DNA of 51,826 nucleotides from a virus (IMGVR_UViG_3300031902_000012:1-51826), one strand, 5' to 3'; counted from the stretch's first letter, positions 8,477-51,354 are shown. Numbers and translations are program-made. Notes: generated by a model from the sequence alone, not told the origin.

Positions 8477-8511
8477 CCTGCCCAACCGACGAATCATCAG
8501 GAGCTACCTCT

Positions 8512-9114
8512 ATGAAGAACTCCCTCTTTCGCCTGGTTCTGGCGCTGCTGCTGATCTCGGCGGCCAGCACGGCAGACGCGCAAGTCGTCACCAAGCAGCC
8601 CTTCTTCGCCCCGACAAACACATGGGTCGATCTGGCCAACGGCCCGATCGAAGTCATGCCGATCGAGGGCAGCGCGATCGTTTACACCTCGAGCGGCGGT
8701 GCCGGCGTCACCGGAACGTCCGCCGGCACCACCGCACTGACCTTGAGCGCCACGCCCGCAGTCGCGCCCTGCGTCGGATGCGTCATCACTTGCGCACCGA
8801 CCAACACGGCAGCGTGCACCATCCCGGCCAACACGACCGTGACCGCGTTCAACGGCACCACCGGCGTGACGACATCGGCCAGCACGACCGTAACGGCCGC
8901 GTCGCTTACCTGGGGTGCTGCGTGCCCTGTCACCGGCACGTTCCCGCCCGCGCCAAGCGCCACCGGCAACACCTTGAGCGCTCCGCTCAACCTGCGCGCC
9001 GGCGTCGACCCGTTCGTCTCGGGCATTCCGCTTTACACGGCCGGGCGCGTCTGCCTTTACGGCGGCCAGCAGCAGGGCGGCACGGTCGTAACCTTCGCGA
9101 TCGGCGCGCATTGA
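8512..9114 (+). CDS. Signal-peptide-bearing, Cys/Thr-rich putative virion appendage protein
   Basis: MKNSLFRLVLALLLISAASTADA|Q, with 6 Cys. Confidence 0.75.
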   Translation: MKNSLFRLVLALLLISAASTADAQVVTKQPFFAPTNTWVDLANGPIEVMPIEGSAIVYTSSGGAGVTGTSAGTTALTLSATPAVAPCVGCVITCAPTNTAACTIPANTTVTAFNGTTGVTTSASTTVTAASLTWGAACPVTGTFPPAPSATGNTLSAPLNLRAGVDPFVSGIPLYTAGRVCLYGGQQQGGTVVTFAIGAH

Positions 9115-9115
9115 T

Positions 9116-9493
9116 ATGGCCGGCGTCGACTCAGCGAACCAGTTTCCGAACTCCGCGATGGCCCGTGCGATTCGCATGGGCCAGTCGCAGATGCGAACGG
9201 TAGATTCGCCAGGGCGCATCGTGCTGCCGGCGCAAGAAAACGTATCGATCGCGTCGGCAGTCGGGCTGACCATCCCTGCGCCGTCGCTGGCGAACAACTG
9301 GACGGTCGTAACCTATGCCGTCGTGACCGCCGTTGGCGGCCCGCTCTATGTCACCTACGACGGATCGACACCATCAATCACCAACTACGCGGTTACAGTC
9401 AGTTCCGGCCAGTCCCTGTCGATCCAAGGTTCGGCGGCTCTCGCTGCCGCGAAGTTGCAAGGCACCTCCATGTCGGTCAGCTACTGGAGCTAG
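9116..9493 (+). CDS. Small beta-rich structural/adaptor protein
   Basis: 125 aa containing YVTYDGSTPS, with no signal peptide and no Cys. Confidence 0.65.
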   Translation: MAGVDSANQFPNSAMARAIRMGQSQMRTVDSPGRIVLPAQENVSIASAVGLTIPAPSLANNWTVVTYAVVTAVGGPLYVTYDGSTPSITNYAVTVSSGQSLSIQGSAALAAAKLQGTSMSVSYWS

Positions 9494-9497
9494 TCGA

Positions 9498-10991
9498 ATG
9501 AGAAAGTTTCTGGCGGCGGCCTTCACGCTATGCTTCGCGGGGGCCGCTTTCGCGCAAAACGGGCTGCCAGGCGGCACGGTCACCTCGATCGCATCGACCT
9601 GCGGCGTCTCCGGCGGCACGATTACCACGACGGGCACGCTTAAGGGCTCCGCGACGCCTAATGCTCAGGTTGGCACGTCCTACGCATTCCAAGATGGCGA
9701 TTGTGGCAAGGTCGTCACGTTTACGAACGCGGCGGCGATTGCTGCCACGATCGCGCAAGCCGGCGGTGGCGGCAACTTCGTCTCTGGTTGGTTCGCGACG
9801 CTGATTAATGAGGGCGCGGGAACGGTCACCTTGACGCCCGCGACCTCGACAGTTGACGGCGCGGCCAGCATCACATTGACGACCAACCAGAGCGTCGACC
9901 TGTTTTCGGACGGGACGAACTACTTCACGGCGCGCGGACGTGGTAGTTCGGTAACTCCGGGCGGAAGTTCCGGCAATCTCCAGACGAATAACGGTAGCGG
10001 CGGCTTCGCTGGCATGCCGTCGATGACTGGTGACGTCACGCTCAACACTGGCACGGGCGCCTCGACACTCAAAAATACAGGACCTGGGGCGACAGGGCCG
10101 ATTGGCTCGGCAACAGTAGTTCCGATTGTTACGATTGATGCCCAAGGCCGTATTACTGCGCTGACAAGCACCACCATCACGCAGCCCGCCGGTGCCAACC
10201 CAACGGCTACGGCAGGACCGACAGCAGTCAACGGCGTCGCAACGACATACATGCGATCAGATGCAGCGCCGGCCGTGCAGCAGGGATCAAGCTCGGTAAA
10301 AGGCGTCGTCCAGGTTGATAATACTTCTGTTACAGCATCTGCCGGCGTAATCGGAACGGCTGCGCATACTGGCGACTGCACAAGTTCGGCCGGCTCCCTC
10401 GCCCTTAAATGTCAGCCTCTGTACCCGCTCTATATCGCAAGCAATTGGTACAACGGCGGTGCTGACAGATTTACGTCGCAGGCTTCGTCATCGACAACCG
10501 GCGCAAATGTCGTCCGCTGCTATCCAGGGTATTTCTACGGCACTGCGACAGTGAGCACGCTTGGGGGGCGCGTCAATGCGACCTCTGGCAACGTGCAGCT
10601 TGCTGTCTACGCCAACGCGGCAGGGCGCCCAGATGGCGTTGCGTTAATGACAACTGGCAACATATCGGCGACGGTTGCCGGACCCGTCAGCGGCACCGTA
10701 AATAGCGCCACGCCAAAGCAGATCTCCGGCGTGCAGTTGGTATGGTGGTGCTCAAACGCTGACAATGCCACGGTTACTCTGTCAGGAGTCGGAGGCGGTA
10801 ACTTCGAAATGGGGGCGCTGATGGGAAGCGCCACGCAGGGTAATATCCTTGCCGGCGGTCCCGCGACGGTCATCGGTGTGACATTCACATCAACGTTCGG
10901 AACGTGGCCGAACGCGACTGGTAAGACGTTCACTGAGGCCGCGACGACGACGATGCCAATCGTGCAGTTTTTAGTTTCGAGCATCCCATGA
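9498..10991 (+). CDS. Tail fibre-like protein with a Sec signal peptide
   Basis: The true start is probably ATG 9498: MRKFLAAAFTLCFAGAAFA|Q. Fibre motifs GTVTSIA...GGTITTTGT and VTIDAQGRITA. Confidence 0.8.
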   Translation: MRKFLAAAFTLCFAGAAFAQNGLPGGTVTSIASTCGVSGGTITTTGTLKGSATPNAQVGTSYAFQDGDCGKVVTFTNAAAIAATIAQAGGGGNFVSGWFATLINEGAGTVTLTPATSTVDGAASITLTTNQSVDLFSDGTNYFTARGRGSSVTPGGSSGNLQTNNGSGGFAGMPSMTGDVTLNTGTGASTLKNTGPGATGPIGSATVVPIVTIDAQGRITALTSTTITQPAGANPTATAGPTAVNGVATTYMRSDAAPAVQQGSSSVKGVVQVDNTSVTASAGVIGTAAHTGDCTSSAGSLALKCQPLYPLYIASNWYNGGADRFTSQASSSTTGANVVRCYPGYFYGTATVSTLGGRVNATSGNVQLAVYANAAGRPDGVALMTTGNISATVAGPVSGTVNSATPKQISGVQLVWWCSNADNATVTLSGVGGGNFEMGALMGSATQGNILAGGPATVIGVTFTSTFGTWPNATGKTFTEAATTTMPIVQFLVSSIP

Positions 10992-13900
10992 TCAGAAGTG
11001 TTATCACCGCATTCATCATCGCTCTATTTGCGGCCGGCGGTGCTGAAGCTCGGCCAAGGGGCATTGTCGCGATCAACACGGGGTCATCGTTCAACGGTGG
11101 CGCGGTGCAAGTCAACTTTAACGATACTCAAGTTGACTTCGCTTGGCCGTTTACGAACTTCGTCAAGAATATGGCGACTTGGTCGCTCGTCAACAATCTT
11201 GGGTCGCCGTCGCCTGCGGACATTGATCTTTATGGATACCCTATTCCTGGGACCCCGACCATGGCGTCTTACGGGGGCGTCTACAACATTGTCCACATGC
11301 CAGCGGAGCTTTATGTAGTCGGCAACTGCATTCCAGCGCAGGCGTCGGGGTACTGCCTGTCGATGCGGGTTAACGGGAAAGGCACCGTACTCAACCCAGG
11401 CACGATAATCACGGGATCTGCGCCGGCCGCGAACATCACGACCGGATCGACGACTGTCCTAGGGTTCGCGGGGGTGGCGCAAGATTTCCGTGCTGGGATG
11501 GAAGTGCCGATTACGGGCGCGAGTGGCGTCGTCCAGGGCGCTAACGGCCCGCATCCTGGGAGCGGGTTATCTGCGGACGTGTTTACGGTTTGCACCGCCA
11601 ACCTGACTACGACACAGATACAACTGTGCTTGAATGATCAGGTAACACCGCTGCAAAGCACGGGGACCGCCAGCACGGCGGCTACCGTCTCGTATGGCCG
11701 TGCAGCGGTAGGGGTTGCTACAAAGGGTCGGTTCGTAACGGTCGTCAATGGGAGCCCGGAACAGTTCAGCGTAGGCATTACTGCAACGGACGCGACTTCG
11801 CCCATCACTTATGCCAACGACATCGACGCCGGGCTAGTGATGGTGTTGCAAGGTTCGGAGGAAACCAGATATCAAAGCGGTTGCACCGATTGCATATTTG
11901 GCTCGCAATTCTTGAGCCGGCTCAAGGGCTCGAATGTCGGGATCTTACGCGCTCTAAATTCCGTTGGCAGCAGTAACGCAACCAACTTCAGCCGCGAAGC
12001 TGTGTGGGCTGATCACAAGCCCGTCTCTTACGTAAATTGGGCATCTGACTACGTCACGGCGCAGACGGCAGTAAATTCAGGGACGAAGATATTTGCCGGA
12101 ACGACAACCAGCGTAGGGAACGATTATTCTGTTACGTTTGGTTCAGGTGCTCCCCCCGATAAGACGAGGTTGGTTGTCCAGTGGGATGCGCAAGCGGCTA
12201 GCACTAACAACTCAGGGAGTGGGGTCGCTGCTCAGGTTACGGCTACGTCTCATGGGCTAAGCGCAGGGGACCCGTTTAATTTTTTCTACACTTTTACCGG
12301 GGCCACAATCCCGACGTTCACCTCGACGTTTACCGGAACCGTGTCTGGCAACACTCTGACAGTTTCCGGTTCCAATGCCGCAATTCCATTTCCAGGTCGA
12401 GCCCAGTTTGGGTTTTCTGCTGGCGTCCAGGCAGGCACGACGACGGTAAGCGGTGCGTGCATCACGTCAGCTACGATAACCGCACAGCCGAGCGGGACAC
12501 CAAACGGCGATGGTAACTATACGATCAGCGGCGGTGCGCAGACTGCCGGTCCTTGCACCATGACGGCGACGGGTGCGATCCCGACGAGCGGTCAGAACCA
12601 ACCTGTCTATTTCGTCTCCAGTGTCATTGATGCTGATCATTTTACTTTCTCCCCAGCAAGCGGCGGCCCGACAGTTGCTACGACCAACAGCGGCGCAAAT
12701 CTGTTGGTGCACAAGGTTGTCGTCAATTCGTCGGTCACGTTCGCAGGCGGCAACACCGCAACTATCAATTGGGCGAACCACGGTCTTAATATAGGCGATT
12801 GGGTCGGCTTCTACGCAAATTCCGGTGGCCTTCCAACGGTACAGGCTACTGGGGCATTTATCCTAAACAACCTGCTCTATTGCGTCGTTTCCACCCCGAC
12901 GTCAGGAACAATCACTGTAGCATCAGCGTGCGGAGGAACCGCGCTGACGTTCTCGACCACAGGCGGCACGATCATCGCGTCTCGCGCTCCAACGCTCAAC
13001 TATAATGGCACGGGCGCTGTTCCCATCATGTCGGCACTGTCGCAGCCGATCGCAACTGGGCAGGCATCAGCGCCCTATGCTCGACTGTTTGGCAAAGCTC
13101 AGCAGTTCTCAGTTCTTGTTTATGACAAGCTGGTCAATGCTTGGCTCAAGGTCGGTTCGGACGGAAGCACGGGAACATCAGCCTATATGACTGGAGGGTG
13201 GCCTCCTGAAATATTTGTCAGGCTTTGCTATGTAATCGGGGCGCAGCCGTGGTTCGTATCACCACCATACACGCTTGACGGTTATACCGATCCGACAACG
13301 CACGTTGGCGGTATCACAGACTACATGCCAAGCTTGATGACCTACATCAGGGACAATTATCAAAACACGATCGCCCCGTGGATGGTCCCGTATATCGAAG
13401 TGCACAATGAGCTATGGAACAATCCGTTCCCTGGGACGCAGGTTTCTTACGCCCACTCTGGGGCGTACAGCGAATCGGGACGGCCTGTCTATGCCGGTTG
13501 GAACCCAACCGGCAGCAGCGTGAACGCATACGCAGGCAAGGTTGCATCTGTTCTTGGGCAGGCCGCACAGAACGTATACGGCGGAACGCTCGGGCAGAAG
13601 TATCATATGATACTTGGGTTTCAAACGGCCAGCATGGCAAATACGTCGGGTTCGGCGTCCCCGAACGGACCTGCGGCTAATGCTGAGCGTATGACTTCAT
13701 CCAACTATGTCGGCCAGACGGTTGCCGCGCAGTCTGGCTACGCTCTCGACCCCGCGAGTAAGTGGGTCTCCGATGTGGCGGGTACCGGATACGTTAACCC
13801 TGGGCAGTATACGACAGCAGACGAGACGGCAGAAGCCGCAACGTGGGCGGGCGGCGTTGTGGCCGGCTCTATCACGGCGGGGAATCCAGGAACCTTAAAT

Positions 13901-14788
13901 ATCACGACGTTCCGCATTGGAACAGTTGGCGTAGGCACGCAGATCAGCAGCGCAGGCGTTATTCCAGGCACCACGATCGCGGCTTGTCCTGGCGGCAATT
14001 GCTCAATAGCTGGAGCGTATACGCTTGACCGCGCCTACACGTCTCCGGTCGGGTCCAACGACTTCAGTACGTTTGCATCATCACCATCAGGCGCTCAAAA
14101 TATTGCATTGCAGACCTATATTGATTCCATGAACTACACTGCGCAGTTTACGGGCTCTGTGTCAGGCACCACTACTCTGACGGTATCAAGCGTCACGTCT
14201 GGGAAAATCTATCCGTCAACAGCGGGAGCCGGTGCCGTTATTCGGTCAAACGGTTTTCCAGATTTGTTGCTATGGGGTGCGGCGGCTCCTTCCTTGGTTG
14301 CGATTAAGCAGCAATTGACTGGGACGCCGAACGGCGTCGGTACGTATCTCCTTAGCTCGGCAGTGACGGCCTCCGGAACCATGTATTCAACTCACCAATT
14401 TGGGATCATGGGGCTTGACCAAGTATATGCTAACATTTCGATCTATGCGAATACGTATACGAACCGGGATAGTAAGCACCCTGGGATACTACAGTACGAG
14501 GGCAGCTACACTCCGGACTACGCCGTTCAAGGCGTGAACGGCGGGCGAAGCCAAGTGGATCAATTCAGGTGGGCAGGGAAAAATGTGGCCAGCACGCCTT
14601 TGATGGCAAACGGCATCCTCGGTTATATCCAGCTCAACAACACGACGTTTAAAAACCGTGGCGGCCTCTACCCGTCTTTGTTCCAGTTCTCTGGAAGAAA
14701 CCCAACCAATAACGACTGGTCGGCTCTCGAAGATATATACCAGCAGACGCAATCACCCATTTGGAACGGGTTTAATACATGGCATTGA
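10988..14788 (+). CDS. Large spike/depolymerase-like protein with a signal peptide and split glycoside-hydrolase-like motifs
   Basis: MIRSVITAFIIALFAAGGAEA|R. YIEVHNELWN and LQYEG motifs. Inserted repeats (HGLSAGD/HGLNIGD; FTGxVSG-TLTVS). Lower GC than the flanks. Confidence 0.7.
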   Translation: MIRSVITAFIIALFAAGGAEARPRGIVAINTGSSFNGGAVQVNFNDTQVDFAWPFTNFVKNMATWSLVNNLGSPSPADIDLYGYPIPGTPTMASYGGVYNIVHMPAELYVVGNCIPAQASGYCLSMRVNGKGTVLNPGTIITGSAPAANITTGSTTVLGFAGVAQDFRAGMEVPITGASGVVQGANGPHPGSGLSADVFTVCTANLTTTQIQLCLNDQVTPLQSTGTASTAATVSYGRAAVGVATKGRFVTVVNGSPEQFSVGITATDATSPITYANDIDAGLVMVLQGSEETRYQSGCTDCIFGSQFLSRLKGSNVGILRALNSVGSSNATNFSREAVWADHKPVSYVNWASDYVTAQTAVNSGTKIFAGTTTSVGNDYSVTFGSGAPPDKTRLVVQWDAQAASTNNSGSGVAAQVTATSHGLSAGDPFNFFYTFTGATIPTFTSTFTGTVSGNTLTVSGSNAAIPFPGRAQFGFSAGVQAGTTTVSGACITSATITAQPSGTPNGDGNYTISGGAQTAGPCTMTATGAIPTSGQNQPVYFVSSVIDADHFTFSPASGGPTVATTNSGANLLVHKVVVNSSVTFAGGNTATINWANHGLNIGDWVGFYANSGGLPTVQATGAFILNNLLYCVVSTPTSGTITVASACGGTALTFSTTGGTIIASRAPTLNYNGTGAVPIMSALSQPIATGQASAPYARLFGKAQQFSVLVYDKLVNAWLKVGSDGSTGTSAYMTGGWPPEIFVRLCYVIGAQPWFVSPPYTLDGYTDPTTHVGGITDYMPSLMTYIRDNYQNTIAPWMVPYIEVHNELWNNPFPGTQVSYAHSGAYSESGRPVYAGWNPTGSSVNAYAGKVASVLGQAAQNVYGGTLGQKYHMILGFQTASMANTSGSASPNGPAANAERMTSSNYVGQTVAAQSGYALDPASKWVSDVAGTGYVNPGQYTTADETAEAATWAGGVVAGSITAGNPGTLNITTFRIGTVGVGTQISSAGVIPGTTIAACPGGNCSIAGAYTLDRAYTSPVGSNDFSTFASSPSGAQNIALQTYIDSMNYTAQFTGSVSGTTTLTVSSVTSGKIYPSTAGAGAVIRSNGFPDLLLWGAAAPSLVAIKQQLTGTPNGVGTYLLSSAVTASGTMYSTHQFGIMGLDQVYANISIYANTYTNRDSKHPGILQYEGSYTPDYAVQGVNGGRSQVDQFRWAGKNVASTPLMANGILGYIQLNNTTFKNRGGLYPSLFQFSGRNPTNNDWSALEDIYQQTQSPIWNGFNTWH

Positions 14789-15099
14789 TCTCTGACCCGA
14801 AGACCAAATGCCCGGCGACCGGTTTCAAAAGCAAGTGCTCGACACTGGCCGCGTGCTGCCCGAAGTTCGTGACGATTCGGGGTCGAGATCCGCAAACCGG
14901 GGTTGAGACTGACCGATCGGGCTGTGTCGACAGCTTCCTGCCCATGCTGCTGATCGAGAATGCTCAGGTGTCGCGCCAGACAGGCGCGGCGGTCGAAACG
15001 CTTCGGAACGAAGTTGCAAAAGACCGCGTTGCATCCGAAGATGCTAGGCAACAGGCGTTGCATGCCTTAGGTGGTACGCAGCGCCGAATTTCAGGGTAA
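14779..15099 (+). CDS. Cys-rich tail-fibre-associated protein
   Basis: CP...C...CPKF..IRG.DPQTG...GC...LPMLLIEN..QTGAAVE, a family commonly seen beside phage fibre genes. Confidence 0.65.
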   Translation: MALISDPKTKCPATGFKSKCSTLAACCPKFVTIRGRDPQTGVETDRSGCVDSFLPMLLIENAQVSRQTGAAVETLRNEVAKDRVASEDARQQALHALGGTQRRISG

Positions 15100-15115
15100 C
15101 CTCGGATGGTTTACG

Positions 15116-15325
15116 ATGACGCTAGAAACGCTCTACGGCTTCGTGAATGGACACGGGGTCGAAGGGGTCCTGCTCGTCTGGCTGTGGCTGGAGCGGGACG
15201 AGAGAGTTTCCTCACAGAGGGAACTGTCGAAAATATCGCAAGACACCGTGATGGCCCTGAACGGAATGCGGGGGCTGCTGGACCAAGCAGTGAGCCTTCT
15301 GCATGGTCATGGAAAACGACAATGA
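15116..15325 (+). CDS. Small membrane protein, holin-like
   Basis: One hydrophobic segment followed by a charged helix. Confidence 0.5.
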   Translation: MTLETLYGFVNGHGVEGVLLVWLWLERDERVSSQRELSKISQDTVMALNGMRGLLDQAVSLLHGHGKRQ

Positions 15326-15501
15326 GCCCTTGGGTGCGGCTGCTCGAAAAGTTGGCCCGCGTCCCGCACCGCTGCGCGGACTCTGATCGCGTCCACGAAG
15401 CTGCAATCGAAATGGGGCACGCTGCAACCCGGCTCCGCGCCTGCCTGGAGCTTCAAGACCCGGTCGCGGCAACCGCGGTGTTCTTTCTCTCCGAAAAATA
15501 G
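15322..15501 (+). CDS. Hypothetical protein
   Basis: ATGA-coupled ORF beginning MSPWVRLLEK. Confidence 0.5.
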   Translation: MSPWVRLLEKLARVPHRCADSDRVHEAAIEMGHAATRLRACLELQDPVAATAVFFLSEK

Positions 15502-15509
15502 GTGGCTTC

Positions 15510-15977
15510 GTGCAGAAAGTGCTCAACTATATCGCGGAGATCGCCAACGCAGATTCCGCGATCGTGGCGAACGTGTTCTGGTTGGTGCTGTTCGCCCACG
15601 TCGGCAGCGTCTACCGGCGCCTGCAGCAGTCGGACCCGGCCAACCCGGAGACGGTCAGCGTTGCTTACGCTGACGTGCTCCGCACCATGTTGCTCAACGG
15701 AATTGCGATGTGGGTTGAATGGTTCGGCGTGGTCATCACTCGCGACACAGTTTTTTACTGGCGGCGCTTCGGCGGGGTGTCCGGTGGTGCCGGCCCGATG
15801 ACGCCGGCGCAAACCGGTGCGATGGTCGTCGGCGCGACCCTGATGATTATTGGGACAGTGTTCATGACCTATGTCTTGAGCCGTCGCACCCTCGGGCATT
15901 CGCCATGGGTGGCCTCGGTCGTGGCGGTCACCGTCACAACGTTCGTCTATCTGGCCTTCTTCCCTTGGACCGGGTGA
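15510..15977 (+). CDS. Multi-pass membrane protein
   Basis: About four hydrophobic segments. Confidence 0.65.
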   Translation: MQKVLNYIAEIANADSAIVANVFWLVLFAHVGSVYRRLQQSDPANPETVSVAYADVLRTMLLNGIAMWVEWFGVVITRDTVFYWRRFGGVSGGAGPMTPAQTGAMVVGATLMIIGTVFMTYVLSRRTLGHSPWVASVVAVTVTTFVYLAFFPWTG

Positions 15978-16028
15978 TGTGTTAGACCTGGAACTGCATC
16001 ACGTCCGGGGCAGCTGGGAGACACGCAC

Positions 16029-16316
16029 ATGACCGTCAAGTCCGACCTGCAGGGCATTGTCGACAGCCTTGAGGCCCTTATGGTCAGGGCCGACGCGCTA
16101 GAGAACAAGCACCTGCGCGATATGCTGGATCTCGGCCGGGGCCGTCTGATCGACGCCGCCAAGCATCCCGACATCGAGCTGATCGAGAAGGACGCGCCGC
16201 CCGAGCCGGGCAAGAATCCCGGCTTCGCGCACCCTGACGACGTTAGCCTCAATCCGGACGGCACGCTGCAGCAGGCGCCAAACGTCGTTGGCCGCGCGGA
16301 CGTGCGTAAGGAGTAG
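16029..16316 (+). CDS. Hypothetical protein
   Basis: 95-aa ORF with a GGGAG RBS. Confidence 0.65.
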   Translation: MTVKSDLQGIVDSLEALMVRADALENKHLRDMLDLGRGRLIDAAKHPDIELIEKDAPPEPGKNPGFAHPDDVSLNPDGTLQQAPNVVGRADVRKE

Positions 16317-16322
16317 CCCTGC

Positions 16323-16505
16323 GTGAGCAAAGGCCTGCCCAGCAAAGCGAAGGTTGGCGTACCGGGCCGGTACGTCAATATCAGCCCTGACACCTATTTC
16401 ATCGCCAAGCGGATGGAAATGGTGGGCAGGCTTCGCCCTGGGCAGGCCTTGATGCTTGCGGCCACGTTGCCGAACAAGGCGCCGAAGAAAGGTAAGAAGG
16501 CATGA
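16323..16505 (+). CDS. Small basic protein
   Basis: AAGGAG RBS; Lys-rich. Confidence 0.55.
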   Translation: MSKGLPSKAKVGVPGRYVNISPDTYFIAKRMEMVGRLRPGQALMLAATLPNKAPKKGKKA

Positions 16506-16708
16506 CCAGTTTCAAGGGCCGTACCGCGTTCATGAAGGACGGCAAGGGTAAGGACACCAAGTACGGCGGTCGGTCCGCGTTGGGCAAGAAGATGGGCAAC
16601 GTCGACAAGGCGGCCGACATCGACGACAGCAACCGCCGCGTCGCCAAGTCCCGCGTAGGCGATGGCGGGGGTTGCTCGACTGTGTTCCACTCGCGGTTTG
16701 GAAAGTAG
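16502..16708 (+). CDS. Small Lys/Gly-rich basic protein
   Basis: ATGA-coupled, 68 aa. Confidence 0.6.
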   Translation: MTSFKGRTAFMKDGKGKDTKYGGRSALGKKMGNVDKAADIDDSNRRVAKSRVGDGGGCSTVFHSRFGK

Positions 16709-17125
16709 ATGTTCTACCGGCCGGGCGGCAGCGCAGGGCGGATCAACGCGCAGTACGATCAGGTCTACACGGACCAGATCGGCGGTGCGACCGCGTGGCT
16801 GCCGATCAACGAGGGCTTCAAGATCGCGGTCAATATTGCTCGCGCCTCGATCGTGTTCGGCAACTCGGCGGCCAGCGCCGTGACGCCATCGCCGATCGCG
16901 CCCGAGGTCCAGGTGTTGATGGAGCGCAAGATGTTCGGCGGCGACCCGGATGCCGCTGCGATCGCGGTCAACCAGTGGCAGAACGAGGTCATCGCGACGA
17001 CAGTCAAGGCGCAGGCCATGGGCTGGGTGCGGCTCCGCGTTGTGAACATCAACAACAGCGACGGGACCGGCGTGCTGCTGGCGCTGCAGATCAGCAAGAA
17101 CGGCGACGCCAATGTCGGGGTTTGA
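16709..17125 (+). CDS. Putative virion structural protein
   Basis: Beta-rich 138-aa ORF with WVRLRV near the C-terminus. Confidence 0.65.
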   Translation: MFYRPGGSAGRINAQYDQVYTDQIGGATAWLPINEGFKIAVNIARASIVFGNSAASAVTPSPIAPEVQVLMERKMFGGDPDAAAIAVNQWQNEVIATTVKAQAMGWVRLRVVNINNSDGTGVLLALQISKNGDANVGV

Positions 17126-18059
17126 GACCGGGGCGCGCGTCAAGCAGTTCGGCTCAATCTTGCGCGGCTTCGGGCCGCCGGTGCCGCAGGCCGGCGTTGT
17201 CGGGGACCTCTACGTCGACACGCAGACCTGGCAGCTTTTCAATAAGCGATTCGCCGAAGCGGGCGTCGACCCGTGGGGGCACTACCTGTTCATCGTCCCG
17301 CCGACCTACCGCACGACCCTGAAATGGTTCAGCGCCTACCCGCCCGGTGACGACATTGGCGTGAACGGCGATTATTGCCTGGCGTGGGCAGGCTGGGCCA
17401 ATTACGGCCTGCAGCCCTCAATTTACGGCCCGAAGGCGCTCGGCACCTGGCCCGAAAACGGCAACGGCCCCAACACCACGATCGCGGCGCTCGGTGCCGG
17501 CACGGTGTTGCCGGTCGGCCTGCTGGACGAAGGCAGCGCCATTACCTACTCGACGTCGTCGCAGTTGATCGTCGTTGGCCTGCTCGACGAATATATTCTG
17601 GCTGTCCCGGCGACCGCGAACGCTGGCGACCCGGTGTCGCAGCTCGGCTTGCAGTCGGGGCCGGCGCTCGTGCCCGTCACCCTCAACCCGCTTTACACCG
17701 CAACGGACGAGATAATCCTCAGCGGCAGCGCCGGTACAGCTCGGCTTCCAGCCGCCGCCGCGACGGTCGTCATCGCGGTGTCGGATCTTGAGGTCGGCAT
17801 CGATTCGGCGTCGGCGCCAACCTCGGTCACGCTGCCGAGCGTCGCTGCGTGGGCCGCGGCCAACCCGAGCAGCCTGGAATTGACCGTGTTCGATTACACC
17901 GGCCACGCGCTCGCGAACAACATCACGCCGACGCTGAACGGGACCGACGTGTTCACGCAGGGCGTCGTGCCCGTGATCTTGAACAACTACGGCGAGTTCA
18001 AGCTGCGTCCGATCATCACCGGCGGCGTCAACCAGTGGTTTGTGAGGGCCGTCGGATGA
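17112..18059 (+). CDS. Tail/fibre adaptor-like protein, paralogue A1
   Basis: N-terminal ~120 aa paralogous to 18820-19230. GVVGDLY and GVNGDY motifs. C-terminal TLP...D...N.IT domain. Confidence 0.75.
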   Translation: MSGFETGARVKQFGSILRGFGPPVPQAGVVGDLYVDTQTWQLFNKRFAEAGVDPWGHYLFIVPPTYRTTLKWFSAYPPGDDIGVNGDYCLAWAGWANYGLQPSIYGPKALGTWPENGNGPNTTIAALGAGTVLPVGLLDEGSAITYSTSSQLIVVGLLDEYILAVPATANAGDPVSQLGLQSGPALVPVTLNPLYTATDEIILSGSAGTARLPAAAATVVIAVSDLEVGIDSASAPTSVTLPSVAAWAAANPSSLELTVFDYTGHALANNITPTLNGTDVFTQGVVPVILNNYGEFKLRPIITGGVNQWFVRAVG

Positions 18060-18823
18060 GACTGATTGCGGCAGTACTGCTGACCTTTTTCTCGAACGTG
18101 GCGTTCGCGCAGTCGGGCCTCATTCCGCAGAACTCGGTCGTGGCGGGGCCGACGGCCGGCGGCCAGGGCTTTCCGCGCGCCAGGTCGCTCACGGCCGCGG
18201 ATCTGCCGTTTCTCGGCACTGGTGTGGGGGCCGCACTCGGCACAGCCGTAGGCTCGGCGGGGTCGGTCGTCCTCAATGGCGGCGCGCTCGGTACGCCTTC
18301 GTCAGGCGTCGGAACGAACCTCACCGCGCTAAATGCATCCAACCTCGCGAGCGGCACCGTGCCAACTGCGCAGCTGCCCGCCGGCCAGTACCCGGGTACG
18401 GCGACGAACGACAACGCCTGCACGACATGTGCCGGGGCATTCCTTTCGTCGAACGTCATCGTCGCTTCGGCGGTGTCGCTCACGACCGCGACGCCCAAGG
18501 ACATCACCACGCTGACCTTGACCGCGGGCGATTGGGACGTGTCGGGCATGTGCGAGACGCAGCCGACCGGCGGCGCCGTCGTGACCGGGTTCATATGCGC
18601 GATCGGGCCGACGCTGAACACGCTCAACACGACGGTGTCGGACAGCAGCGCTTTCAGCCTGGACAGCTCGACGCAGGCCGCGAGTGCGAACCTGTCGCTC
18701 ACGACGGACACGGCCCGCATTTCCTTGGCCGGATCTGCGACGTACCACCTCGTGGCGCAGGCGACGTTTGCGAGCGGCACGGTGGGCGGGTTTGGCAAGA
18801 TCAGAGCGCGGCGGATGCGATGA
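18056..18823 (+). CDS. Fibre-like protein with a Sec signal peptide
   Basis: ATG 18056 overlaps the upstream stop. MRLIAAVLLTFFSNVAFA|Q. Motifs LTALNASNLASGTV and LTLTAGDWDV, ending ARRMR. Confidence 0.8.
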   Translation: MRLIAAVLLTFFSNVAFAQSGLIPQNSVVAGPTAGGQGFPRARSLTAADLPFLGTGVGAALGTAVGSAGSVVLNGGALGTPSSGVGTNLTALNASNLASGTVPTAQLPAGQYPGTATNDNACTTCAGAFLSSNVIVASAVSLTTATPKDITTLTLTAGDWDVSGMCETQPTGGAVVTGFICAIGPTLNTLNTTVSDSSAFSLDSSTQAASANLSLTTDTARISLAGSATYHLVAQATFASGTVGGFGKIRARRMR

Positions 18824-19230
18824 GCGGCTTCGGTTCCATCGCGCGCGTCAAGCAGTTCGGCGCAATCCTGCGCGGGCTTGGCCCCCCTGTGCCGCAAGCT
18901 GGCGTGGTCGGGGATCTGTATATTGATGGGCAGACGTTCCAGCTTTTCAACAAGCGATTCGGAGCCGCCGGGCCGGACCCCTGGGGCCGCTATCTGTTCG
19001 TGGTGCCGCCCACCTACCAGATAGCTTTGAAGTGGTTCACGGCATCCGCACCGGCGAAGGATCTCGGCGTGAACGGCGATTACTGCCTGCTGTGGGGCGG
19101 CTACCCAAACTACGGCCTGCAGCCCTCAATCTTCGGGCCTAAAGCCGCCGGCGCGTGGCCGGGGTCTGCAACGCCGGTCGCCGTGACGCTGAATCCTCTC
19201 TACACCGGAGAGGACGTGCATGGCATATAG
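18820..19230 (+). CDS. Tail/fibre adaptor-like protein, paralogue A2
   Basis: MSGFGSIARVKQFGAILRGLGPPVPQAGVVGDLY, closely matching the start of 17112. Confidence 0.8.
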   Translation: MSGFGSIARVKQFGAILRGLGPPVPQAGVVGDLYIDGQTFQLFNKRFGAAGPDPWGRYLFVVPPTYQIALKWFTASAPAKDLGVNGDYCLLWGGYPNYGLQPSIFGPKAAGAWPGSATPVAVTLNPLYTGEDVHGI

Positions 19231-20380
19231 CCCGACTACAGACTTCGTCGGACTTTGGCGCGCGAGCGGCGGTAACGTTTCGAAGCTCGAAATGCCGGGC
19301 CTGGATTTCGTCGTCGCGGCTCTCGGCCGCGCGGGGCTGATCACGGTCACCGCATCGGCGACCGCGCCAGTCGCCAACCAGGCGACCACAGCGTGGCTGC
19401 ACACGGCGTCGCCGAGTTCGAGCGCCGAAGGTGCGCTGAACCTCTGGAACGCGTCCGCGAGCGCCTACGCGCCCGCCACACCCCCACTGTTCCTGGCCTT
19501 CCTGGACGCGTGCACGGGCGCCAACGGGGTGTCGTGGTGGACGTCCACCGGCGGTCCGCCGTTGAACACCGTGGGCCTGAATGGAGACTTCGCCGTCCGG
19601 CTCGACCAACCAGGCGGCATCTACGGGCCGAAGGTCGCGGGCGCGTGGCCCGCAACGCCGCTGCCCGGCACAACGACGGCCTTCATCAGTGCGGATCTCG
19701 ACGCAGCATTCGGCGCGGCTACCGGCGAAATGCTGTTCCGCGGCATCTCGCTATGGCAGGGGCTCCCGATCGGCGCTGCGGACACGATCCTGTCGCCGGT
19801 GTCTGGCGTTCCCGCCTGGCGAACGCTGAACGTGCTGCTTGACGAGATCTTTGGGACGACACGCGGCTCTATTCTGTCGCGTGGTGCGTCCGCGTGGGCC
19901 GGCATCCCGCCAGGGGCAGCGGGCACCGTGATCAAGTCCAACGGCCCTGGCGCCGACCCATCCTATGCGGTGCCTGAGTTTGCCAGCGGCACTTCGATGC
20001 TGTTCTATCAGGCGACAGCCCCGACCGGATGGACCAAGCGAACGGACACCAACGACATCGGCCTGCGCCTGACAGGCGGCGGAACCGGCGGCACGATCAG
20101 CGGCAGTGTGGCCTTTTCGACGGTGTTCGGGCAGACAGCTACGGGCGGCACCGCGATTAGCGTTGCGCAGATGCCGGCGCATCACCACACGACAACAGCG
20201 GATGGGCTGCCGGTCGAATACGCCGGCGCCGGCAGTTCAGGCGTCACTTCCGCGGGCGTAGCGCAGCCGACGCAAACATCGGTTTTCAGCATGGCCGACA
20301 ACGGCGGCGGATTGCCGCACACGCACTCCATCAACATGCAGCTCACGTATGCGGACGTGATTGTTTGCGTGAAGAACTGA
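19220..20380 (+). CDS. Tail fibre protein, paralogue B1, with a collar-like C-terminus
   Basis: MAYSPTTDF...MPGLDFVVAALGRAGL. C-terminal FASGT.MLFYQATAPTGWTK...YADVIVCVKN. Confidence 0.75.
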   Translation: MAYSPTTDFVGLWRASGGNVSKLEMPGLDFVVAALGRAGLITVTASATAPVANQATTAWLHTASPSSSAEGALNLWNASASAYAPATPPLFLAFLDACTGANGVSWWTSTGGPPLNTVGLNGDFAVRLDQPGGIYGPKVAGAWPATPLPGTTTAFISADLDAAFGAATGEMLFRGISLWQGLPIGAADTILSPVSGVPAWRTLNVLLDEIFGTTRGSILSRGASAWAGIPPGAAGTVIKSNGPGADPSYAVPEFASGTSMLFYQATAPTGWTKRTDTNDIGLRLTGGGTGGTISGSVAFSTVFGQTATGGTAISVAQMPAHHHTTTADGLPVEYAGAGSSGVTSAGVAQPTQTSVFSMADNGGGLPHTHSINMQLTYADVIVCVKN

Positions 20381-20387
20381 GGATGCA

Positions 20388-21005
20388 ATGAGCTACGCAC
20401 CCACGACCGATTTTATTGCGCTGTTGCGACTCACGGCCAACGGCGTCCGGAACGAACGCATGCCGGGGCTCGACTACGTCGTCTCTGCGCTCGCGCGGGC
20501 CGGGCTGCTCAACATTTCGGTCAGCCAGACTGCGCCCGTTACGAACCAAGCGGCGACCGCATGGTTTCGTCCTGCGGTACCAACGTGGACCGCGGAGGGT
20601 ATACTCTACCTCTGGAACGCCACGACGTCAGCTTACGAGGTTGCCACGCCCGCGTTGTGGACCGCATTTCTGGTGGGCGCGTCGTCGGGCTATCTGTTTC
20701 AATCGGTGGCGTCTGGCTCTGCCACGATTAACCCCGGCGTATCGTTGCTGGCTATCCAACGCGTCAGCCCGACTGCAACGGCGTTGCTGCTGCCCAACCT
20801 CGGCGCGCAGTGGAATTCGGGCCGCGAGCTCCGGATCGTCGATTTCTCGACGGCCCTCACCGTGCACACCACCACGCTGACGACTCCTGATGGTTCCACC
20901 ATCATGCAAAAAACATCATGGAGTCTGCGATCAACTCCCGACAGCCTTGCAGGCGTCATGTTGACGCCGTCCCCAAATCTCAACTCGTGGGTCATCACGC
21001 CATGA
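20388..21005 (+). CDS. Tail/fibre adaptor-like protein, paralogue B2
   Basis: MSYAPTTDF...MPGLDYVVSALARAGL, paralogous to 19220. Confidence 0.75.
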   Translation: MSYAPTTDFIALLRLTANGVRNERMPGLDYVVSALARAGLLNISVSQTAPVTNQAATAWFRPAVPTWTAEGILYLWNATTSAYEVATPALWTAFLVGASSGYLFQSVASGSATINPGVSLLAIQRVSPTATALLLPNLGAQWNSGRELRIVDFSTALTVHTTTLTTPDGSTIMQKTSWSLRSTPDSLAGVMLTPSPNLNSWVITP

Positions 21006-22411
21006 AGAAGCTGCTTGTTGCTTTTGCCGCGCTGCTGCTCGCGGCGCCCGCTGCTGCTCAGTGGCAGACGCCGAATCACTCTATCCCGATCGGCCAAGGC
21101 GGCGGCGTTACGGGTTTCAACAGCGTAGGCCCCGCGGCGGCAGACCTGCCGCTTGTCGGCAACGGCGCGAGCGCAGACCCGTCGTTTCGTGTGCTACCCA
21201 ACGCAGGGCTCGCAAACCCGACTGTTTCGGTGAACGGCGTAACGTGCGTGTTGGGTTCGTCGTGCATCCCTGGTTTCATGAATTCGTTCACCGTCAGCCA
21301 CGCAATCGCGCCTGCGGATTGCGGCGGCATCGTCCAGATGGGGTCGGGCGCGCAAACGGGATTGACACTGACGCTGCCGGCCAGCCCCCTGAGCAACGGC
21401 TTTACGGGTCCGTGCCCGGTGACGATAATTGGGCAGGCGTCCCGCGCAATCATACTCTCTGGCTTCTCCGGGTTGGCGCTTACATCCCCGAACATGCTGT
21501 GGCCAACGAAGTCGTTTTCAGTGGCGATCAACAGTGCGGGCGCATGGGCACTGACCGCTCCGGACGGCCGCTACCGCCCACTCGGGACGTTGACGCTTAC
21601 GGTCGACACCAGCGGCAGTGACGCCGCGGGAGACGGTCTCGGGGTTGGCGGCGCAACGTCGTTCCGCAATATCCAGACCTGCATGAACGCGATTTCGAAT
21701 TTTTTCGATTTCACGGCCACCGGCAGTCAGCCGACGTGCGGGCCGACAGTGGGGCAGACGTTTACGGAAGCGTTGACGTGGGCGTGGCCCCCGGTAGGGA
21801 CCAACACGCTGAACCTCGCGGGGCAAGGCGGCGCATTCATCCTGCGATCGCCGAGCGCGGCGCCGGCGCTGTTCGCCGGTAACGGCGCCAACATTCAGCT
21901 TACCAACATCACGATCACAGGAACGGGGGCTGGTTGCGGCACTGGGTGTATTCACGTCAGCATGCACAACGCCAGCGTCGTAGAGCCACTGGCGGGCGTG
22001 ACTTGCGACAACACAGGCGCCGGCGGTGCTTGTTTCAAGACCGACATCAACACCGCGGGCGGCGCCCGCCTGAACATCGACAACGGGCTCACCGTGTCGG
22101 GCACTGTCGGTACCATCGTGGATCTCAACGGCGGATCCTCGATGATATGGAATTCGACGCTTGTCGCTTCGGGCCTGACGCTGGCCCAAGTGTTCGCCGG
22201 TCGAGGCGCGGGTACGAATCTGGTGCTCCAGGGCAACTTCGGCGTCTCCGGTAGCTTCGGCACCGCGAGGCAGTGGGCGATCCTGAATAACGCCACGCTG
22301 TGCAACGTCAGCGGCGTGGCCGTCCCCGGCAGCACCGCAGGAATCGCTTCCGGTGCCGGCTTTGCGGCGGGTGTGATCGTCAACAGCGGGACGTCCGCCA
22401 GCGCCTGCTGA
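21002..22411 (+). CDS. Fibre/spike protein with a Sec signal peptide and a probable beta-helix head
   Basis: ATG 21002 overlaps the upstream stop. MKKLLVAFAALLLAAPAAA|Q. TVDTSGSDAAGDGL...FRNIQ is a typical beta-helix cap. 12 Cys. Confidence 0.8.
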   Translation: MKKLLVAFAALLLAAPAAAQWQTPNHSIPIGQGGGVTGFNSVGPAAADLPLVGNGASADPSFRVLPNAGLANPTVSVNGVTCVLGSSCIPGFMNSFTVSHAIAPADCGGIVQMGSGAQTGLTLTLPASPLSNGFTGPCPVTIIGQASRAIILSGFSGLALTSPNMLWPTKSFSVAINSAGAWALTAPDGRYRPLGTLTLTVDTSGSDAAGDGLGVGGATSFRNIQTCMNAISNFFDFTATGSQPTCGPTVGQTFTEALTWAWPPVGTNTLNLAGQGGAFILRSPSAAPALFAGNGANIQLTNITITGTGAGCGTGCIHVSMHNASVVEPLAGVTCDNTGAGGACFKTDINTAGGARLNIDNGLTVSGTVGTIVDLNGGSSMIWNSTLVASGLTLAQVFAGRGAGTNLVLQGNFGVSGSFGTARQWAILNNATLCNVSGVAVPGSTAGIASGAGFAAGVIVNSGTSASAC

Positions 22412-22466
22412 AGGCTTGCCCTCGGCCCCCGTGTCAGGTATGACAGTCTGACACGGAGGCTGCCTC

Positions 22467-23243: not shown

Positions 23244-23408
23244 ATGACCAATCTGACCGTTCTTGGTGACATCTGCCTCGGGCTCGGCTCCTACGCTCTC
23301 GGTGCGTGGACGTGGCCCTACATCCACAAGGCGGCTCTTGGCGCCGAGGCTTACGCCGCCAAGCTGCGCGCGAAGGCCGCCGCGATCACGACGGCGGCGA
23401 GGAGCTGA
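23244..23408 (+). CDS. Small membrane protein in the lysis cluster
   Basis: MTNLTVLGDICLGLGSYALGAWTWP..., 54 aa, filling the gap between endolysin and holin. Confidence 0.55.
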   Translation: MTNLTVLGDICLGLGSYALGAWTWPYIHKAALGAEAYAAKLRAKAAAITTAARS

Positions 23409-23409
23409 C

Positions 23410-23985: not shown

Positions 23986-24101
23986 AGGTGCTCGCGATAT
24001 GCGGCGCAATTTTGGTCTTACCCCTCTGCGCACTGTTCGGCCTGTGGGTGTGGGTGGGGCACCTGCTCGACAAACGAGGCCAAAGGGCTACCAGACGATG
24101 A
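23982..24101 (+). CDS. Small membrane peptide
   Basis: ATGA-coupled. MKVLAICGAILVLPLCALFGLWVWVGH. Confidence 0.5.
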   Translation: MKVLAICGAILVLPLCALFGLWVWVGHLLDKRGQRATRR

Positions 24102-51313: not shown

Positions 51314-51354
51314 CTCATTCCGTACAAATCCAATCACGAAATGTTTCAGTAGAC
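51314..51354. repeat. 41-bp direct repeat, copy 2
   Basis: 40/41 identical to 64-104. Confidence 0.95.

What the first reader, a model, noticed from the sequence alone, without database searches (positions are those of the whole stretch)
8512..22411. Five fibre/spike proteins with Sec signal peptides and paired cysteines: candidate periplasm-folded virion appendages
Seen: ORFs starting at 8512, 9498, 10988, 18056 and 21002 each begin with a basic N-region, a hydrophobic core and an AxA cleavage site (ADA|Q, AFA|Q, AEA|R, AFA|Q, AAA|Q). Their mature parts contain 6, 6, 13, 4 and 12 Cys by my count, mostly in close pairs. Signal-less neighbours (2204, 7739, 9116, 16709, 17112, 18820, 19220, 20388) have only 0-2 Cys. 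Established: tailed phages normally assemble entirely in the cytoplasm, and their fibres lack signal peptides. Inference: these receptor-binding/depolymerase proteins are exported, disulfide-bonded in the periplasm, and join the particle only at or after inner-membrane lysis. Alternatively, they act on the infected cell surface.
Basis: partly seen in the sequence, partly recalled or inferred. Interest (0 to 1): 0.92.

Follow-up and report, generated by a model that had tools for sequence, protein, structure and literature searches.

The report
Phage tail spikes with export signals
An uncultured soil phage encodes tail-fibre-like proteins that carry bacterial export signals and paired cysteines, which suggests that parts of its host-recognition apparatus fold outside the cytoplasm, something not described for tailed phages.

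Summary
All five ORFs start with a basic, hydrophobic, AxA-type signal peptide, and they are the only 5 of 58 candidate genes to do so. The window is a 99%-complete podovirus-like IMG/VR genome.

The signals are conserved by property rather than by sequence. Examples: 22/22 viral relatives of 21002, 23/24 database homologues, and 76/119 homologues of 9498. Signal-bearing homologues have even cysteine counts (23/23; 72/74), and cysteine columns appear and vanish in pairs.

21002 models as a beta-helix. Relatives of the signal proteins carry the tail-fibre hallmark Peptidase_S74.

The signal-less upstream gene 20388 has a fold seen in tail fibres and spikes. It is followed by a signal-bearing "QWQ" protein in 42/42 loci. 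Proteins sharing only its N-domain are followed by one in 0/14 loci. A complex model docks the post-cleavage N-terminus of 21002 on the 20388 C-terminus (score 0.83, best control 0.00).

Export and disulfide folding are well supported. Joining the virion at lysis is plausible but unproven. 10988 looks like a host-derived exported glycan enzyme, and the role of 8512 is unknown. Eight literature searches found no report of this.

The parts
21002..22411 (+). Signal-peptide spike (469 aa). Residues 1-19 are the signal, 20-~65 a conserved 'QWQTPNHS' anchor, ~91-445 a beta-helix. 12 Cys.
20388..21005 (+). Signal-less adaptor (205 aa, 0 Cys), translationally coupled to 21002 by an ATGA overlap. Its C-terminal residues 172-205 are the predicted docking site.
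18056..18823 (+). Signal-peptide fibre protein (255 aa, 4 Cys). It has a conserved 'QSGLxPxN...GGQGF' N-terminus and a very common C-terminal tip domain.
9498..10991 (+). Signal-peptide fibre-like protein (497 aa, 6 mature Cys). It lies in a lower-GC stretch.
10988..14788 (+). Signal-peptide protein of 1266 aa (13 Cys) from a family with cellular Bradyrhizobium/Xanthobacteraceae members. Probably an exported glycan-active enzyme.
8512..9114 (+). Small signal-peptide core protein (200 aa, 6 Cys), present with a signal in all five complete relatives. Role unknown.
19220..20380 (+). Signal-less fibre-like protein (386 aa, 2 Cys). It shares its first 95 residues with 20388.
17112..18059 (+). Signal-less protein (315 aa) directly upstream of 18056. 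The first 200 residues are conserved in relatives and the C-terminal ~115 are specific to this window.
18820..19230 (+). Short paralogue (136 aa) of the N-terminus of 17112.
7739..8476 (+). Conserved signal-less protein (245 aa, 0 Cys) directly upstream of 8512.
9116..9493 (+). Conserved signal-less protein (125 aa, 0 Cys) directly upstream of 9498.
22467..23237 (+). Endolysin-like protein (PG_binding_1) without a signal. It is followed by membrane-helix ORFs 23263-23985 and 23999-24265, which are possible holins.
2204..6220 (+). 1338-aa internal-virion-type protein with a transglycosylase match and 0 Cys. It marks the start of the tail and ejection module.

Best explanation
The five ORFs encode pre-proteins with Sec / signal-peptidase-I type signals. 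They are exported across the inner membrane of a diderm host, probably a Bradyrhizobium-like alphaproteobacterium, and fold in the periplasm with disulfide bonds.

At least three of them (21002, 18056, 9498) are tail-fibre or tail-spike proteins. In them a signal peptide takes the place of the usual N-terminal virion-attachment domain.

For 21002 the proposed mechanism is this. Signal peptidase creates a new N-terminus that starts with an invariant Gln-Trp-Gln-Thr-Pro-Asn. This new end, together with residues 32-41, docks as a trimer on the C-terminal domain of the signal-less adaptor 20388. The adaptor's N-terminal domain is of the kind found at the base of tail fibres and is presumed to sit on the cytoplasm-built particle.

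Spike and particle can meet only after the holin and endolysin breach the inner membrane at lysis. The virion would then be completed in two compartments.

10988 is more likely a free exported glycan-degrading enzyme captured from the host. The role of 8512 is open.

Shown: the signal features, their conservation, the cysteine pairing statistics, the fibre/spike domain content, and the adaptor-spike gene pairing.
Modelled: the docking.
Inferred: export, cleavage, disulfides, presence in the virion, and timing.
For: (1) The signals are real.
- 5 of 58 genes carry one.
- 22/22 viral relatives keep a variable hydrophobic signal before an invariant A|QWQTPNHS.
- 23/24 database homologues of 21002 carry a signal. 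So do 76/119 homologues of 9498, 65/149 of 18056, and 5/7 of 10988 by the heuristic. A sixth 10988 homologue (P0303) has a signal-like start on inspection of its printed N-terminus that the heuristic's charge rule rejects, and the seventh (P0302) starts without one.

(2) The cysteines behave like disulfide partners.
- Mature Cys counts are even in 23/23 signal-bearing homologues of 21002, in 72/74 of 9498 and in 88% of 65 for 18056.
- Signal-less homologues have a median of 3 and 1 Cys (Mann-Whitney p=2e-10).
- Cys columns co-occur: 107/138 share one pattern in 17/20 rows. A 'GPC...DPxC' pair is present together in 5 rows and absent together in 14 of 19, never one alone.
- The only signal-less homologue of 21002 (P0020) lacks most of the conserved Cys.

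(3) The proteins are fibre or spike in nature.
- The AlphaFold2 model of 21002 is a beta-helix over residues ~91-445 (pLDDT 77.5).
- Weak Foldseek matches are to phage spikes, depolymerases and pectin/alginate enzymes (best E 1.4e-3).
- Signal-bearing proteins of relatives carry Peptidase_S74 (E 4e-10 and 1.3e-11).
- The N-terminal motif of 18056 recurs as an internal repeat of a classical signal-less fibre.

(4) The adaptor link.
- A 20388-like gene (0 Cys in 20/21) lies upstream in 21/22 loci.
- Among 61 further loci, 42/42 full-length 20388-like genes that have a downstream ORF are followed by a signal + Q[WQYF]Q anchor protein (36/36 after dropping identical copies).
- This compares with 0/14 for proteins that share only the N-terminal 95 residues.

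(5) The complex model, 3 copies each.
- Score 0.83 (runs 0.86/0.83/0.72), best of 3 controls 0.00.
- The mark was reached by 58 of 80 solved complexes and 2 of 110 mismatched pairs.
- The runs agree in at least 86% of contacts, and partner pLDDT is at least 81.
- The interface is 20388 residues 172-205 with 21002 residues 20-25 and 32-41.

(6) The fold of 20388.
- The top 5 PDB matches are all phage spike, baseplate or chaperone-substrate entries, including the CBA120 TSP4 N-terminal docking part (E 3e-4 to 5e-2).
- There are 132 BFVD matches at E<=1e-3. The named ones are tail fibre, T7 tail fibre, pectate-lyase, collagen and S74 proteins.

(7) In relatives G001-G004 the signal-less proteins of the module are small and conserved. 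The large variable ones carry signals.
Against: - No tool here shows export, cleavage, disulfides or presence in the virion.
- No cultured relative exists in the GenBank phage set: terminase identity is at most 31%, and there are no hits for 21002, 18056 or 7739.
- Joining after lysis faces a dilution problem and has no precedent that I could find.
- The complex job (3+3 chains, own unpaired alignments) differs from the tool's calibration. The two proteins could be halves of an ancestral single fibre, which tend to pass.
- Foldseek TM-scores for 20388 are low (0.33-0.43).
- 10988 has signal-bearing cellular homologues in a non-prophage polysaccharide locus. Cys counts in its family are often odd.
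- Exceptions exist: a 659-aa signal-less 19220-like protein with 16 Cys (L090), and some signal-less homologues with 4-11 Cys.
- Signal calls rest on my heuristic, which gives false positives in non-coding frames.
- The gene table is crude.
Confidence: 0.5

Rival explanations
1. The proteins are exported but never join the virion. They act in the periplasm or on the surface of the infected cell. They might cut or mask envelope polysaccharide receptors, which would block superinfection, stop progeny sticking to debris, or ease release through capsule or EPS. The fibre-like build would reflect reuse of receptor-binding modules.
For: - The signal and disulfide evidence is as above.
- 10988 has a cellular homologue beside glycosyltransferase, flippase-type and methyltransferase genes.
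- Three relatives carry a Wzy_C O-antigen-ligase-like membrane protein inside the same module. Envelope-modifying genes therefore do sit among these genes.
- Beta-helix matches include secreted pectin and alginate enzymes.
- Known phage periplasmic proteins with signals are non-virion. One example is lambda Lom, which lies between tail genes (passage in PMC12309495).
Against: - This rival does not explain why a ~45-residue mature N-terminus is invariant while the C-terminus is swapped.
- It does not explain why that N-terminus always follows a signal-less, Cys-free, fibre-type adaptor (42/42 against 0/14), nor why it is modelled to dock on it.
- No signal-less paralogue with the same C-terminal domain exists in the window to serve as the 'real' virion copy.
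- In four relatives the only large variable fibre-like proteins carry signals.
Confidence: 0.3
2. The proteins are exported and anchored on the surface of the infected cell as adhesive fibres, in the way Bdellovibrio displays its MAT fibres. The purpose might be to tether infected cells to fresh hosts.
For: The architecture matches MAT fibres: a signal, then a conserved N-domain, then variable tips, with S74 and non-S74 members and disulphides in the tips (passages of PMC10769870). S74 occurs in signal-bearing relatives.
Against: - No route across the outer membrane is evident.
- The anchor is modelled on a phage-encoded signal-less protein, not a cell-surface element.
- The genes lie in a lytic phage's tail module next to the endolysin.
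- Homology to the MAT N-domain was not tested.
Confidence: 0.07
3. The hydrophobic N-termini are not cleaved export signals. They would be membrane tethers or buried helices, and the fibres would assemble in the cytoplasm as usual.
For: No SignalP run or experiment was available. The AlphaFold2 model shows residues 2-12 as a helix.
Against: - Position -1 Ala is invariant and position -3 is Ala or Val in 19/19 rows, in front of an invariant Gln.
- The core is variable in sequence but always hydrophobic.
- Even Cys counts track the presence of the signal.
- The modelled interface uses the first six post-cleavage residues.
Confidence: 0.05

Closest known systems
Bdellovibrio bacteriovorus MAT fibres (PMC10769870; passages read)
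   Same: Phage-tail-fibre-like trimers have a signal peptide, then a conserved N-terminal domain, then swappable C-terminal tips. There are S74 and non-S74 members, and disulphides occur in the tips.
   Different: MAT fibres are encoded by a bacterium and anchored on its own surface. Here the genes sit in the tail module of a lytic podovirus-like genome, the conserved N-terminus is much shorter (~45 residues), and it is paired with a phage-encoded signal-less adaptor. Sequence or fold homology to the MAT N-domain was not tested.
Branched tailspike systems with docking adaptors (CBA120 TSP4 N-terminal part, PDB 7rfo; match)
   Same: A signal-less N-terminal module carries a docking site for a second, separately encoded spike. 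The 20388 model matches 7rfo_A at E 2e-3.
   Different: As I recall, in the known systems all partners are cytoplasmic and lack signals. Here the docked partner is made as a Sec pre-protein with paired cysteines. TM-score is only 0.36, so membership is not established.
Filamentous phage coat proteins g3p/g8p (recalled; gIII signal appears in the listing of PMC9402515)
   Same: Virion proteins are made with Sec signals, cleaved, and (for g3p) disulfide-bonded in the periplasm before entering the particle.
   Different: Those phages assemble by extrusion through the envelope and have no cytoplasmic capsid. This genome has an HK97-type capsid match, a terminase and an endolysin.
Signal-bearing non-virion genes of tailed phages: lambda Lom (passage in PMC12309495) and T4 antiholin RI (title and abstract start in the listing, PMC8385771)
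   Same: Tailed-phage genes, some placed among tail genes, whose products are exported by a signal peptide.
   Different: They are small envelope or regulatory proteins. They are not fibre/spike-type modular proteins with a conserved anchor and swapped receptor-type domains.

Membership tests
Sec / signal peptidase I signal peptide | Basic n-region, uncharged hydrophobic core of about 8-18 residues, small residues at -3 and -1 | tested here: met
   My own heuristic passes all five ORFs and no other of the 58 genes. The cleavage motifs were read directly.
Sec / signal peptidase I signal peptide | Conserved by physico-chemical property, not by sequence, across homologues | tested here: met
   22/22 relatives keep the signal. 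Majority fraction is 0.48 in the core against 0.71 in the mature part. Position -1 is Ala in 19/19.
Sec / signal peptidase I signal peptide | Call by a trained predictor (SignalP) and experimental cleavage | not testable with these tools
   No such tool was on hand.
Disulfide-bonded periplasmic or extracellular protein | Even number of cysteines, gained and lost in pairs | tested here: met
   Even counts in 23/23, 72/74 and 88% of 65. Columns are paired. 10988 itself has 13 Cys.
Disulfide-bonded periplasmic or extracellular protein | Cysteine pairs within bonding distance in the structure | not testable with these tools
   Model coordinates are not returned.
Phage tailspike / tail fibre (receptor-binding protein) | Beta-helix or fibre-repeat body | tested here: met
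   21002 models as a beta-helix. Foldseek matches are weak (best E 1.4e-3). The fibre repeat motif of 18056 occurs in a classical fibre. This was not tested by fold for 8512, 9498, 10988 or 18056.
Phage tailspike / tail fibre (receptor-binding protein) | Conserved N-terminal anchor with a swapped C-terminal domain | tested here: met
   Only the first ~60-90 residues of 21002 are shared by 20 of 22 loci.
Phage tailspike / tail fibre (receptor-binding protein) | Peptidase_S74 intramolecular chaperone (in a subset of the family) | tested here: not met
   None of the window's five has it. Two signal-bearing proteins of relatives do.
Phage tailspike / tail fibre (receptor-binding protein) | Presence in the virion and receptor binding | not testable with these tools
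   There is no cultured relative.
Branched-spike docking adaptor (CBA120 TSP4-like) | Fold of the N-terminal docking domains | tested here: inconclusive
   PDB matches have E 3e-4 to 5e-3 but TM 0.35-0.39. There are 132 BFVD matches at E<=1e-3. The profile of the 20388 alignment (A3) finds no PDB sequence at E<=1.
Branched-spike docking adaptor (CBA120 TSP4-like) | Binds the N-terminus of a second spike | tested here: inconclusive
   This is a model only: score 0.83 against best control 0.00. Gene pairing is 42/42.
Bdellovibrio MAT fibres | Conserved ~130-aa beta-rich domain directly after the signal | not tested
   No MAT sequence was fetched. Here the conserved part is only ~45 residues.

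The most novel reading that the evidence does not exclude
A widespread group of soil tailed phages builds virions in two compartments. Capsid, tail and Cys-free adaptors assemble in the cytoplasm. The receptor-binding spikes and fibres are exported by Sec, oxidised by the host Dsb system and trimmed by signal peptidase. The trimming exposes the docking end. The spikes snap onto the particles only when the holin breaches the inner membrane.

The same module families exist in two forms, a cytoplasmic Cys-poor form and an exported Cys-paired form. This implies repeated switching between the two assembly routes.
Probability: 0.45. Interest if true: 0.92.

Novelty: new variant of a known kind. Interest (0 to 1): 0.8.

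Why it matters
Textbook tailed-phage assembly is entirely cytoplasmic. If exported, disulfide-bonded receptor-binding proteins complete the particle at lysis, several things follow:
- Virion assembly would depend on the host Sec, signal peptidase and Dsb systems.
- Lysis timing would become an assembly step.
- Disulfide-stabilised spikes could explain the persistence of phages in soil.

Even under the rival reading the finding has value. It would define a large, unannotated class of phage-encoded exported fibre-like proteins: thousands of metagenomic relatives of the 18056 tip domain, about 44% of the best 149 with signals.

For annotation, it shows that a signal peptide should not be used to exclude a gene from receptor-binding-protein prediction.

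Tried and rejected
- **Family libraries.** Pfam, PHROGs and NCBIfam gave nothing for the five proteins or their neighbours.
- **PDB sequence searches.** None for 10988 or for the 20388 profile.
- **ESM Atlas.** It gave only sub-threshold leads: scores 0.78-0.87, TM at most 0.35 by query.
- **GenBank phages.**
  - No DNA match for 8000-23000.
  - No protein match for 21002, 7739 or 18056.
  - 9498 matches only a signal-less 219-aa protein of three Rhizobium phages.
- **Reference genomes.** No relative of 21002 was found, so a prophage origin is not supported.
- **'Decoy copy' idea.** This proposed a signal-bearing duplicate of a signal-less virion spike. It was rejected because no such pair shares a C-terminal domain in the window.
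- **Frameshift fusion of 20388 with 21002.** I considered this because the 21002 frame stays open far upstream in some relatives. I rejected it as unnecessary. Long alternative-frame ORFs are common in this GC-rich genome, and the ATGA overlap is kept.
- **Outer-membrane-protein reading of the 'ADMPVK...' proteins of relatives.** This rests on recall only. Pfam and NCBIfam found nothing.
- **Crude gene table.** It lost several real genes to alternative frames. I use it only together.
- **Literature.** Eight searches found no report of Sec-exported tail fibres or spikes in tailed phages. Supplementary files were not asked for, so virion proteome tables that I could not see might bear on this.

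Full report
**What the window is.**
- The 51,826-base window is a whole IMG/VR virus record, linear, with a CheckV completeness of 99%. GC is about 0.62.
- It encodes the following:
  - a capsid (PF25209), a family-A DNA polymerase, a helicase, a primase/AAA_25 protein and a PG_binding_1 endolysin-like protein
  - a large terminase and a P22-type 'head closure / packaged DNA stabilization' protein
  - a 1338-aa Cys-free protein with a transglycosylase match
- This fits a lytic podovirus-like phage.
- No close cultured relative exists in 50,697 GenBank phage records. There is no DNA match and terminase identity is at most 31%.
- Five complete relatives of 50.8-53.5 kb (G001-G005) were found and fetched.

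**The observation.**
- Translation confirms all five N-termini, the five cleavage motifs and the cysteine counts. Only 9498 needs a correction: it has a seventh Cys inside the signal.
- A simple heuristic of my own flags exactly these 5 of 58 candidate genes. All five are in the tail module (5/22 against 0/36, p=0.006).
- The heuristic is permissive. It also flags six non-gene or internal starts in a six-frame scan. Conservation therefore carries the argument.

**Conservation of the signals.**
- For 21002, all 22 related viral loci have a K/R-hydrophobic-AxA segment of differing sequence, followed by an invariant QWQTPNHS.
- In the 19-row alignment, position -1 is Ala in 19/19 and position -3 is Ala in 17 and Val in 2. 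The core is less conserved than the mature 45 residues (0.48 against 0.71).
- Of 24 non-self database homologues, 23 have a signal, often in front of quite different mature N-termini.
- 8512 has signal-bearing homologues in all five relatives.
- 9498, 10988 and 18056 have no homologue in G001-G005, but they do in the large libraries:
  - 9498: 76 of the 119 listed homologues carry a signal, 12 more have another hydrophobic N-terminus, and 31 have none.
  - 18056: 8,048 representatives at E<=1e-3. Of the best 149, 65 carry a signal and 84 do not.
  - 10988: 5 of 7 by the heuristic. A sixth, P0303, has a signal-like start on inspection of its printed N-terminus that the heuristic's charge rule rejects. 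The seventh, P0302, starts without one.

**Cysteines.**
- Signal-bearing homologues have even mature Cys counts: 23/23, 72/74 and 88% of 65.
- Signal-less homologues of the same domains have few Cys (medians 3 and 1; p=2e-10).
- Cys columns are gained and lost together.
- The one signal-less homologue of 21002 lacks most of the conserved Cys.
- This is the pattern expected of disulfides formed outside the cytoplasm.
- Exceptions exist (L090; some rows). 10988 has 13 Cys.

**What the proteins are.**
- No Pfam, PHROG or NCBIfam family matches any of the five.
- The AlphaFold2 model of 21002 (pLDDT 77.5) has three parts: a signal helix, a low-confidence stretch (residues 14-90) and a beta-helix (residues ~91-445). 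PDB matches are weak and are to phage spikes, depolymerases and pectin/alginate enzymes.
- In relatives, two signal-bearing proteins end in the tail-fibre hallmark Peptidase_S74. One of them is the 1275-aa QWQ protein of G005.
- Signal-less homologues of 9498 start with an 'M-A-D-x-K-I-S-A-L-P' type N-terminus, which I recall as typical of tail fibres. Many signal-bearing ones show a similar motif right after the signal.
- The mature N-terminal motif of 18056 is conserved in a second anchor family. It recurs as an internal repeat in a signal-less fibre.
- I therefore read 21002, 18056 and 9498 as fibre/spike-type proteins in which a signal replaces the usual attachment domain.
- 10988 is different. 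It aligns over residues 41-880 with a signal-like-bearing chromosomal Bradyrhizobium protein. Relatives of that protein in a Bradyrhizobium chromosome and a Xanthobacteraceae MAG sit beside glycosyltransferase, polysaccharide-export-type and methyltransferase genes, not prophage genes.
- 9498 and 10988 also lie in a lower-GC stretch.
- This points to a host-derived exported glycan enzyme and to a Bradyrhizobium-like diderm host.

**The link to a signal-less partner.**
- 20388 (205 aa, no Cys) overlaps the start of 21002 by ATGA.
- A full-length homologue lies upstream of the QWQ gene in 21 of 22 loci.
- In an independent set of 61 loci found through 20388:
  - 43 have a full-length homologue and 42 of these have a downstream ORF.
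  - All 42 downstream ORFs begin with a signal and a Q[WQYF]Q...HS anchor (36/36 after removing identical copies).
  - Of 17 loci that share only the N-terminal ~95 residues (19220-like), 14 have a downstream ORF and none has a signal.
  - No fused form was seen.
- The model of 20388 (pLDDT 79.4) matches phage spike and baseplate entries in the PDB, among them the N-terminal docking part of CBA120 TSP4.
- It also matches 132 BFVD models at E<=1e-3. The named ones are tail fibre, T7 tail fibre, pectate-lyase, collagen, S74 and depolymerase proteins.
- TM-scores are modest (0.33-0.43).

**The complex model.**
- Three copies of 20388 with three copies of 21002 residues 20-104 gave a score of 0.83 (runs 0.86, 0.83, 0.72).
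- The best of 3 controls scored 0.00.
- The mark was reached by 58 of 80 solved complexes and 2 of 110 mismatched pairs.
- Runs agree in at least 86% of contacts, and partner pLDDT is at least 81.
- The interface joins residues 172-205 of 20388 with residues 20-25 and 32-41 of 21002. Residues 20-25 are the very first residues after the predicted cleavage site.
- The tool warns that this job is unlike its calibration and used my own alignments. The pair could also pass as halves of one ancestral fibre. It supports binding but does not show it.

**Reading.**
- Export and oxidative folding are, in my view, about 90% likely.
- The reading that exported spikes complete a cytoplasm-built particle at lysis is the most economical account of three things: the invariant post-cleavage anchor, its strict pairing with a Cys-free fibre-type adaptor, and the lack of other large variable fibre proteins in four relatives.
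- That reading remains inference (about 0.5). The main rival is an exported, non-virion role on the envelope (about 0.3). That rival fits 10988 and the Wzy_C-like gene in relatives, but it does not explain the adaptor pairing.

**Novelty.**
- The closest known system is the Bdellovibrio MAT fibre family: a signal, a conserved N-domain and variable tips, with S74 and non-S74 members and disulphides (passages of PMC10769870). That system is cellular.
- Filamentous phages export coat proteins (recalled), but they assemble by extrusion.
- Eight full-text searches found no report of Sec-exported fibres or spikes in tailed phages. I did not see supplements.
- I rate this a new variant of a known kind, with high interest.

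Noticed in passing
window 51353-51826: There is an array of 26 copies of an 18-base unit (85% matches; also readable as 5 copies of 90 bases) running to the right end of the record. It produces a spurious 165-aa ORF with 26 Cys on the minus strand. It may be a terminal or origin repeat.
   Followed up: partly
window 10001-16000: This is a lower-GC stretch (0.56-0.58 against 0.63-0.67 on either side). It holds 9498, 10988 and several small ORFs without homologues in most relatives. GC3 of 9498 and 10988 is 0.66 and 0.61, against 0.77-0.85 for the other signal genes. It looks recently acquired.
   Followed up: partly
L032:2890-3873 (-) (G003); homologues at G004 26013-27014 and G005 11124-12092: A multi-pass membrane protein with a Wzy_C O-antigen-ligase match (E 3.5e-9) sits between the 8512-like and 9116-like genes in three relatives. 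It is absent from the window.
   Followed up: partly
G002 34013-33285, G003 27753-26959, G004 36984-36250, G005 26892-26194 (all -): Signal-bearing ~230-265-aa proteins with a mature start 'ADMPVK/ADLATK' lie near the terminase gene in four relatives. They remind me of alphaproteobacterial outer-membrane beta-barrels, but Pfam and NCBIfam found nothing for the G002 copy, the only one scanned.
   Followed up: partly
proteins P0064, P0071, P0087, P0099, P0119, P0122, P0128 (homologues of 9498): This is a third N-terminal class. A conserved ~50-residue leader ('...ELNH.WHGI...') with a membrane helix is followed by a second signal-like segment ending AYA/AAA. It may be a membrane-anchored form or a fused upstream gene.
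   Followed up: no
L090:3001-4980: A 659-aa protein has the 19220/20388-type N-terminus, 16 Cys and no signal. It is followed by another signal-less 19220-like gene. It is an exception to the rule that many Cys go with a signal.
   Followed up: no
window 17112-18059 / 18820-19230 and 19220-20380 / 20388-21005: There are two pairs of paralogous N-terminal domains: 75% identity over 114 residues and 57% over 95 residues. In each pair one member is a short 'adaptor-only' form. G005 carries three copies of the second domain in a row.
   Followed up: partly
window 14779-15099: A small 106-aa ORF with 5 Cys and no signal overlaps the stop of 10988. It is conserved at 51% identity in G005 only.
   Followed up: no
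L031:10031-12418 (-) (G003): A 795-aa signal-bearing protein has repeated 'S/T-x-N/D-G-G-x-S/T-W' motifs and a sub-threshold Sortilin-Vps10 match (29.5 bits against a cut-off of 33). This suggests a beta-propeller glycosidase-like protein. It is one of five signal-bearing genes in a row in G003.
   Followed up: partly
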